From Narcine bancroftii (Eukaryota), in the NCBI RefSeq assembly GCF_036971445.1, contig NC_091481.1, positions 83,638,001 to 83,702,000 on the forward strand: 64,000 nucleotides of DNA, given 5' to 3'. A program made the translations under genes and the position numbers. Positions 12,330 through 12,846 of this stretch are shown here, one piece after another (within the stretch, counting starts at the first letter, position 1; every line of letters begins with the position of its first letter). Below the pieces are notes generated by a model that did not search any database, was not told where the DNA came from, and saw only the letters and a list, made by a program, of their open reading frames with translations.

Positions 12330-12846
12330 TAGGAACAGAGTGAAACACAGAAGCCTGCAGACGCCGTGACTGAAGTAAAAACACGAGGCTGGAGAAACTC
12401 ACAGGTCAAACCACGACCTTTATGTAGCAAAGATGCAGAACCAACCAGTTGCAGGAACAACACCTGATTTTCCATCTGGGCGCTCTTCAACCTGATGGCA
12501 TTAACATCGACTTCTCCTGTTTCTCCTGGCCCACTCCCTGTTCTCCCTTTCTTCCCCATCCTTCTGTCTCTTTTTCTCCAGCTCTCCACGTCCTTCCCTC
12601 TCCATTCACAGAGCCATCCCCCTTGTCTTCTGCTGGACTCCCTTCCTTATCCAGCTACCTATGGGACTGTGCTTCTCTCTCGACCTCTTCCTTCCCCACA
12701 CCATTTTCTTCAGGCGCCTGCCGACATTTTGCTCGTACCTTGATGAAGGGCTCAAGCCTGAAACGTCGATTCTGTATCTTTATCCTTGCTACATAAAAGA
12801 CACTGTTTGACCTACTGAGTTTCTCCAACGTTGTGTTTTTTTTACC
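12330..12846 (+). mobile_element. Penelope-like element 3' end (GIY-YIG tail plus terminal repeat) with an inverted terminal repeat at its 5' side
   Basis: EQHLIFHLGALQPDGINIDFS coding remnant from 12449; hammerhead-like motif at 12737-12770; the stretch ending at 12445 is an inverted copy of the sequence from about 12765 onward. Confidence 0.75.

What the first reader, a model, noticed from the sequence alone, without database searches (positions are those of the whole stretch)
12737..12770. Dispersed minimal hammerhead-ribozyme-like motifs carried by Penelope-like repeats
Seen in sequence: a recurring motif ACC-TTGATGA-A-GGGC-TCAA-GCCY-GAAA-CGTY-GGT. The best copies are 12737-12770 (+, GUC triplet, predicted cleavage after 12767) and 10221-10254 (-). 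More degenerate copies lie at about 3934, 8842, 14904 (-), 15749, 16303 (-), 16517, 22624 (-), 48555 (-), 57931 (-) and 58952. The motif maps onto a type I hammerhead (stem I, CUGANGA, stem II, GAAA, stem III, NUH) with a tiny palindromic ACGU stem III and an extra A after A9. Established: Penelope-like elements carry such minimal hammerheads, thought to cleave as dimers. Unusual here: most copies read UUGAUGA, so the C3-G8 pair becomes U3-G8. Sense-oriented copies sit in introns of the PH gene and of NKPD1, so host pre-mRNA could in principle be cut; that part is inference.
Basis: partly seen in the sequence, partly recalled or inferred. Interest (0 to 1): 0.7.

Follow-up and report, generated by a model that had tools for sequence, protein, structure and literature searches.

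The report
Wobble-core hammerhead in dead Penelope ends
These repeats are decayed end pieces of a very abundant, likely extinct Penelope-type jumping gene in a ray genome; each carries a known kind of tiny hammerhead RNA motif in which about nine in ten well-preserved copies have an inherited U in place of a normally fixed C, a change predicted to slow cutting, and the copies here likely do not cut host RNA.

Summary
The motif is real: all 12 listed sites were found (22 matches versus 6.6 by chance). [quoted passage not shown] Genome-wide, U3·G8 outnumbers C3-G8 2,428 to 248. It is inherited from the source elements, dominates the younger subfamilies, and is not half of a U3-A8 swap (115 versus control 120). 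Stems I and II covary between families. The family looks dead: no intact frame among 150 listed RT hits, and 1 of 49 random motifs is intact. Host pre-mRNA cleavage is unlikely. The scan noted this family before in this genome (e1-9879921) and the start pile-up in other genomes. Verdict: known system, new core variant, activity untested.

The parts
12737..12770 (+). Minimal type I hammerhead copy, U3.G8 core, predicted cut after 12767; stem I broken (C.A), G10.1.U11.1 wobble
12446..12864 (+). 5'-truncated Penelope-like fragment: nuclease C-terminus (about 12455-12517, EQHLIFHLGALQPDGINIDFS), pyrimidine-rich 3' region, hammerhead, tail to about +98
12339..12445 (-). Inverted arm of the same insertion (tail only, starting 3-11 bases before the cut site)
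10143..10451 (-). Element end; hammerhead at 10221-10254 is the best-preserved window copy (GUU triplet); antisense in a PH-gene intron
3932..4030 (+). Short copy starting at -33, the base of stem I; G12 lost by CpG decay
8791..8957 (+). Copy resembling the older families (G7, A-U pair in stem II, stem I lost)
9658..9742 (-).
14829..15265 (-). Element end with decayed hammerhead (14903-14936)
15445..15891 (+). Element end with nuclease C-terminus and decayed hammerhead (15749-15782)
16205..16629 (.). Head-to-head pair: 16205-16386(-) and 16462-16629(+), hammerheads at 16304-16337 and 16517-16550, both core-damaged
22528..22966 (.). Copy 22528-22752(-) with hammerhead 22625-22658, followed by a short palindrome 22808-22894(-)/22896-22966(+) joined inside GAAA
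48480..48588 (-). Short copy starting at -33, sense in an NKPD1 intron; core damaged
57870..58292 (-). Element end with decayed hammerhead (57931-57964)
58951..59093 (+). Short copy starting at -31/-32; core damaged

Best explanation
The motifs are decayed copies of the minimal hammerhead in the terminal repeat of a Penelope-like retroelement, with U3.G8 inherited from the source elements, and the element's RNA likely began at the hammerhead's first bases and was likely reverse-transcribed uncut, so the wobble core was likely a slow or dispensable ribozyme that did not stop the family from spreading. Shown: the RT-nuclease-hammerhead linkage, the U3 majority, decay of the copies, and the positions of copy ends (5' pile-up at -37..-28, 3' ends at about +75-80 and +110 from the cut). 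Inferred: transcription start at about -33, internal RT initiation at the two 3' end sites, weak cleavage needing a dimer or the element's protein, and the order C3-G8 to U3.G8. The window copies are predicted to be inert for host RNA.
For: Linkage: the window reads a nuclease C-terminus 220 bp before the motif. L117 holds an RT with YIDD followed by a CX3CxxC linker and the nuclease, with the motif downstream. Its 20 long homologs (32-50% identity) all carry PF26215; 18 of 20 carry RVT_1 and 4 of 20 GIY-YIG. Counts: U3.G8 2,428, C3-G8 248. In the first 100 of 351 listed matches, position 3 was U 93 times and position 8 was G 96 times (tallied by eye). U3-A8 115 versus same-context G5-to-A control 120. 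Clustering of 254 copies: the most diverged cluster (0.32) is C3-plurality (17 C, 11 U of 37); the middle (0.24) and youngest (0.13-0.19) clusters are U3. Double Watson-Crick changes among 211 copies: 10.4-11.4 13 vs 2.8 expected, 2.2-1.2 21 vs 6.5, 2.3-1.3 12 vs 4.2. 5' ends of 90 unselected young copies: 17 at -37..-28, 2 at -5..+4, background 3.0 per 10 nt (P 3e-8). L028 runs from -36 through the tail into sequence that matches the ORF start of L259. In the lizard element PAc, catalytic mutants did not affect insertion in vitro and uncut RNA was the main template (PMC11167929). Dead state: best non-self RT hits 73-82% identical, longest open frame 512 aa among 150 listed; 1 of 49 random motifs intact.
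Against: No activity was measured. The rest of the core is unchanged in every cluster majority, and the U3 lineage shows a C-G pair at 2.4-1.4 in one subfamily (12 of 37 vs 5 of 112); both suggest continued selection on the fold. The -33 boundary could be a DNA-level nuclease or resolution site: a similar TAC-containing word lies at +75 and +110, no extra G was seen before -33 (1 of 15), and the word at -63 reads TTTTGTT, not a TATA consensus. Older families with C3 also lack a cut-site peak (1 of 117), so the boundary data do not show that U3 lowered cleavage. The covariation reflects a few ancestral events, and its sample included motif-selected loci. Cluster ages come from noisy 150-nt alignments with no tree. 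The genome searches score only top candidates, so an intact element cannot be excluded.
Confidence: 0.7

Rival explanations
1. U3.G8 was an adaptive, active variant. The U weakens an inactive rod-like misfold (positions 3-8 pairing with 15.2-1.2), so stem I forms more often and offsets the catalytic cost, with cleavage in dimers or with the element's protein.
For: Reverting U3 to C lowered predicted stem I pairing in 4 of 4 subfamily contexts (0.58 to 0.06, 0.996 to 0.875, 0.45 to 0.03, 0.92 to 0.39). The oldest C3 family has GAC rather than GGU after the cut. The core is otherwise unchanged in all cluster majorities. PAc cleavage is protein-assisted.
Against: The inner rod helix is still predicted at 0.96 in two of the four contexts. 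C3 subfamilies with GGU or GGC also exist. In a type III hammerhead scan all mutants of this region except the C-G swap had low activity (PMC9901934 passages). No shuffled control was run for the folding shift.
Confidence: 0.25
2. The hammerhead is a brake that removes the capped first 33 bases of the element's RNA. C3U released the brake, which would explain why U3 subfamilies took over the genome.
For: The hammerhead sits at the inferred RNA start. U3 marks the youngest and most abundant clusters. Craig et al. note that hammerhead absence may aid proliferation (PMC8557442 passage).
Against: One lineage, so U3 may have hitch-hiked. There is no measurement of cleavage or transposition rate. 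The transcription start is inferred.
Confidence: 0.2
3. The motif is kept for a non-catalytic reason, such as an internal promoter or protein-binding hairpin, and has not cleaved since U3 arose.
For: The A at -33 lies in a word that fits the initiator consensus (recalled). Drosophila Penelope has an internal promoter with a downstream element (PMC2377424 passages). There is no cut-site footprint in any family.
Against: Stem I and stem II pairs covary between families, which points to RNA structure. A minor older family appears to carry compensated U3-A8 (10 of 100 listed rows vs 2 of 100 in the control, counted by eye).
Confidence: 0.2
4. Sense copies in introns cut host pre-mRNA and affect the PH gene or NKPD1.
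For: Five sense copies lie in PH-gene introns and one in an NKPD1 intron; two sense copies share one intron.
Against: None of the six passes all core and stem checks; the only passing copy is antisense. Sense and antisense copies are 5 and 4. Spliced contigs join across these introns in run X3 (RNA is a guess there, and contigs cannot show ends).
Confidence: 0.03

Closest known systems
Minimal hammerheads (min-HHR) in pseudo-LTRs of metazoan Penelope-like elements (Cervera and de la Pena 2014, PMC4209133; parts 1-2 of 4 read)
   Same: Type I topology, no helix III beyond a palindromic 15.2-16.2, extra nucleotide between 9 and 10.1, G10.1-C11.1, mostly dispersed single copies from truncated elements, many families per genome.
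   Different: The core variant reported there is compensated U3-A8 (Schistosoma); here the dominant state is uncompensated U3.G8. Cartilaginous fishes are not mentioned in the parts read; 1 of its supplementary files could not be searched.
Poseidon element of Anolis carolinensis, PAc (Frangieh et al. 2024, PMC11167929; parts 1-2 of 4 read)
   Same: Hammerhead at the pLTR-ORF junction, two RT start sites giving a 30-40 bp tail (here 3' ends at about +75-80 and +110), uncut RNA as the main template.
   Different: PAc has C3-G8, its ORF starts inside the hammerhead, and it is active. Here a candidate ATG lies about 150 bases after the cut, the nuclease has a Neptune-type Cys linker, and no intact copy was seen.
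Neptune-type endonuclease-positive PLEs (Craig et al. 2021, PMC8557442; passages and section 6 read)
   Same: RT followed by a C-terminal GIY-YIG nuclease with a CX2-5CxxC linker, heavy 5' truncation, inverted 5' copies, tail.
   Different: No tree was built, so the clade is assigned by motif only.
Natural hammerhead core variants (Perreault et al. 2011, PMC3088659, sections 8-9; Naghdi et al. 2020, PMC7151607, passages)
   Same: U3-A8 covariation is known in nature, and Naghdi et al. write one saltern variant with U3 and G8.
   Different: That variant also has a 2-nt insertion and is a rare isolate, not the state of a family with about 10^5 copies.
Non-LTR retrozymes (bioRxiv 10.64898/2026.07.22.740005; part 1 of 5 and passages read)
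   Same: Derived from PLE pLTRs, type I hammerhead, reported in one chondrichthyan.
   Different: Retrozymes are tandem arrays; these copies are solo or head-to-head and often keep nuclease-coding sequence.

Membership tests
Penelope-like element (EN+) | RT followed by a C-terminal GIY-YIG nuclease, linked to the repeat | tested here: met
   L117 and other long loci. Pfam hits on the decayed copies are below cut-off (RVT_1 E 5e-4, GIY-YIG E 2e-3); homologs pass RVT_1.
Penelope-like element (EN+) | 5' truncation, inverted 5' copies, 30-40 bp optional tail | tested here: met
   37 head-to-head pairs among 433 hits; bimodal 3' ends.
Penelope-like element (EN+) | Direct pLTR upstream of a full-length ORF | tested here: inconclusive
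   No full element was recovered; L028 links hammerhead, tail and ORF start by DNA similarity to L259.
Neptune group | CX2-5CxxC linker before GIY-YIG | tested here: met
   CYRRCNTC in the L117 translation; similar in other loci.
Neptune group | RT phylogeny | not tested
   No tree was built.
Minimal type I hammerhead | Stems I and II with compensatory changes | tested here: met
   Excess double changes at 10.4-11.4, 2.2-1.2 and 2.3-1.3; none at 10.1-11.1, 15.2-16.2 or 2.1-1.1. Few independent events.
Minimal type I hammerhead | Core U4 G5 A6, G8 A9, extra base 9a, G12 A13 A14 A15.1, U16.1, H17, palindromic 15.2-16.2 | tested here: met
   Majority at every position in 49 random copies and in all cluster majorities.
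Minimal type I hammerhead | Watson-Crick pair at 3-8 (C-G or U-A) | tested here: not met
   U3.G8 in 2,428 matches vs 248 C3-G8 and 115 U3-A8; filed as a variant.
Minimal type I hammerhead | Site-specific self-cleavage (dimer or protein-assisted) | not testable with these tools
   Only contigs were available; they cannot show RNA ends.
Non-LTR retrozyme | Tandem units each with a complete hammerhead, no coding sequence | tested here: not met
   7 direct adjacent pairs among 433 hits; window copies are solo or inverted, several with nuclease-coding sequence.

The most novel reading that the evidence does not exclude
A Penelope lineage spread to about 200,000 copies after its hammerhead lost the Watson-Crick 3-8 pair. 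U3.G8 was selected, either because it frees stem I from an inactive rod fold or because it weakens a self-decapping brake at the very start of the element's RNA. The genome holds all three states (C3-G8, U3-A8, U3.G8) as a natural allelic series for what these ribozymes do.
Probability: 0.25. Interest if true: 0.6.

Novelty: new variant of a known kind. Interest (0 to 1): 0.33.

Why it matters
The role of hammerheads in Penelope-like elements is still open. A family that amplified massively with a core change expected to impair catalysis, and whose copies record uncut templates, offers a direct test of whether cutting is needed, harmful or irrelevant to these elements. It also shows that descriptors requiring CUGANGA would miss about 90% of the motifs in this genome. 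The individual window copies are ordinary decayed repeats.

Tried and rejected
Rfam scan: no hammerhead family among 9 matches at E<=10. Covariation at 2.1-1.1 (ACU/AGU) looked real but was rejected: A at 1.1 occurred in 10 of 22 ACT rows and 31 of 73 ACC rows (by eye), and 12 observed vs 12.4 expected; it is CpG decay. An alternative hairpin between positions 3-6 and loop II was rejected, with predicted probability at most 0.001 in 4 variants. U3.G8 as half of a U3-A8 swap in the main family was rejected. CpG decay as the source of U3 was rejected because C3 is followed by U. A cleavage footprint at copy 5' ends was not found: 2 of 90 unselected young copies, 0 of 30 tail-selected, 1 of 117 older. 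The extra G before the start reported in earlier notes was not seen (1 of 15 at -34; 2 of 24 otherwise; that set includes some misclassified long copies). No listed run is on record as RNA, and contigs gave no start or end sites; this is no evidence either way. Pfam found nothing on the L016 nuclease fragment. Lunse et al. 2017, Przybilski and Hammann 2007 and Nelson and Uhlenbeck 2008 were not held, so measured rates for a C3U mutant, and any earlier report of U3.G8 in PLEs there, could not be checked. Searches for a printed U3.G8 PLE variant found none; the library lacks most subscription papers, one supplement of PMC4209133 was not searchable, and bioRxiv supplements are closed.

Full report
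Observation. The motif is in the sequence. A degenerate pattern gave 22 window matches against 6.6 expected, including all 12 listed sites. The 12737 copy has C17 at 12767 but ends GAT, so stem I is broken. Only the antisense copy at 10221-10254 passes all core and stem checks. Neither folds better than shuffles (4 of 4 stretches, z -0.77 to 0.61). All 12 have T at position 3; 5 read exactly TTGATGA. Positions below are counted from the predicted cut.

Host. The window is G000:C27:83638001-83702000 in a 3.33 Gb assembly. The PH exon is 100% identical to a protein that NCBI labels as from an electric ray, Narcine bancroftii, with the closest relatives in skate, stingray and sharks. The PH gene has coding exons starting near 1775, 9796, 13033, 14464 and 17626 on the + strand. 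BLOC1S3 lies at 42493-43104(+) and NKPD1-type KAP NTPase exons at 46800-48467(-) and near 54.6 kb(-).

Carrier element. Upstream of 12737 the window encodes a nuclease C-terminus typical of Penelope-like elements (motif recognised from recall, then checked against the loci). A longer copy used as query gave 61,539 first-look candidates, and the best non-self hits were only 67-77% identical. L117 carries RT (YIDD), a CX3CxxC linker, the nuclease and the motif. It matches 20 long proteins at 32-50% identity, all with PF26215 and 18 with RVT_1. An RT search gave 34,855 candidates; among 150 listed hits the longest open frame was 512 aa, against 750-950 aa for the homologs. A profile of the element end found 127 hits in 1.2 Mb of stretches picked at spaced coordinates, 79 spanning the motif; this extrapolates to about 200,000 motif copies. 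The 3' ends are bimodal at about +75-80 and +110, matching the tail described for these elements (PMC11167929; PMC8557442). Head-to-head pairs (37) outnumber tail-to-tail (8) and direct (7) pairs among 433 hits in 261 sequences, after 16 overlapping loci were dropped. The 12737 insertion itself has an inverted arm at 12339-12445.

The U3.G8 core. With identical flanking constraints, U3.G8 has 2,428 exact matches and C3-G8 has 248. In 49 random copies with tail support (of 74 hits), the 3/8 pair was U.G 31, U-A 6, C-G 3, other 9. U3-A8 (115) equals the same-context G5-to-A control (120), so it is post-insertion decay in the main family. About 10 of the 100 listed U3-A8 rows have a different stem II and loop, against 2 of 100 in the control (counted by eye), hinting at a small, older compensated family. 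Mixture clustering of 254 copies put C3 as plurality only in the most diverged cluster, and U3 in the middle and youngest clusters, which differ at position 7, loop II and the tail. U3 therefore persisted through several amplification waves (inference). Among 211 copies, three stem pairs show excess compensatory changes and the other six tested show little or none. These reflect a few ancestral events, and the set includes motif-selected loci. In a type III hammerhead scan, all mutants of this region but the C-G swap had low activity (PMC9901934 passages). U3-A8 is a known natural covariation (PMC3088659 section 8; PMC4209133). One saltern variant with U3, G8 and a 2-nt insertion is mentioned in PMC7151607. 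Five searches found no printed PLE family with U3.G8, but three key papers were not held.

How it likely worked. Among 90 young-family copies not selected on the motif, 17 start at -37..-28 and 2 at -5..+4, against 3.0 per 10 nt background. The remaining groups were 47 nuclease-selected copies (all long), 30 tail-selected (3 at -37..-28, one of them a subfamily artefact; 0 at the cut) and 23 motif-selected (4). The modal start is the base of stem I, at an A that fits the initiator consensus (recalled). L028 runs from there through the tail into sequence matching the ORF start of L259. The simplest reading is that the RNA starts at the hammerhead and RT starts internally at +75 or +110 and runs off an uncut 5' end, giving short copies such as 3932, 48588 and 58951. 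Long copies come from the downstream repeat. This agrees with PAc, where dead-core mutants inserted normally in vitro. Against it: no extra G (1 of 15), no clear TATA word at -63, and a similar TAC word at +75 and +110, so a nuclease-made boundary remains possible. Older families with C3 also lack a cut-site peak (1 of 117), so these data do not show that U3 reduced cutting. Folding predicts an inactive rod for the monomer, and U3 favours stem I over C3 in 4 of 4 contexts; this is a prediction without a shuffled control.

Host effect. Five sense and four antisense copies lie in PH-gene introns. No sense copy is intact, and spliced contigs in run X3 join across the introns holding 12737, 15749 and 16517 (1 study, RNA status guessed). 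Cutting of host pre-mRNA is unlikely but untested.

Earlier notes. The scan recorded this family with the same reading elsewhere in this genome, U3-A8 families in other shark-like genomes, and the start-site pile-up in other genomes. One note mentioned the motif at the RNA start before I measured it; the rest were seen. They are unchecked notes, not independent support.

Verdict. A real, known system with a core variant not found in the literature I could search; the copies are fossils and activity is untested. Interest 0.33.

Noticed in passing
window 49170-52900 (+): Broken LTR-retrotransposon-like remnant with gag-, RT- (YLDD), RNase H- and integrase-like frames inside the NKPD1 intron (recognised from recall, no family scan).
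   Followed up: no
window 63169-63812 (-): Second integrase-like fragment (recognised from recall).
   Followed up: no
window 1775-18569 (+): 249-aa PH-domain gene (si:ch1073-83n3.2-like) with five coding exons; the 34-nt exon at 13033-13066 is skipped in some contigs.
   Followed up: partly
window 42493-43104 (+) and 46800-54763 (-): BLOC1S3 reading frame and NKPD1-type KAP NTPase exons, convergent.
   Followed up: partly
window 57505-57588 (-): Weak tRNA-like match (22.6 bits, E 3.5), possibly a tRNA-derived SINE head.
   Followed up: no
window 9211-9303: Long near-perfect hairpin picked up as a weak miRNA match; possibly a small inverted-repeat element.
   Followed up: no
window 22808-22966; L242, L307, L081, L085, L075: Short palindromic insertions whose two arms join inside or at the edge of the hammerhead stem-loop.
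   Followed up: partly
element end, -33, +75 and +110 from the cut: The three preferred copy boundaries share a pyrimidine-rich word containing TAC, which may be one recognition signal.
   Followed up: partly
G000, rows: About 10 of 100 listed U3-A8 matches have a GGGU/ACCC-type stem II and different loops, suggesting a small older family with a compensated core.
   Followed up: partly
L259:3220-4071 and L258, L267, L274, L133: The element has a long C-rich low-complexity stretch between its N-terminal block and the RT-proximal block, absent from the homolog used for mapping.
   Followed up: no
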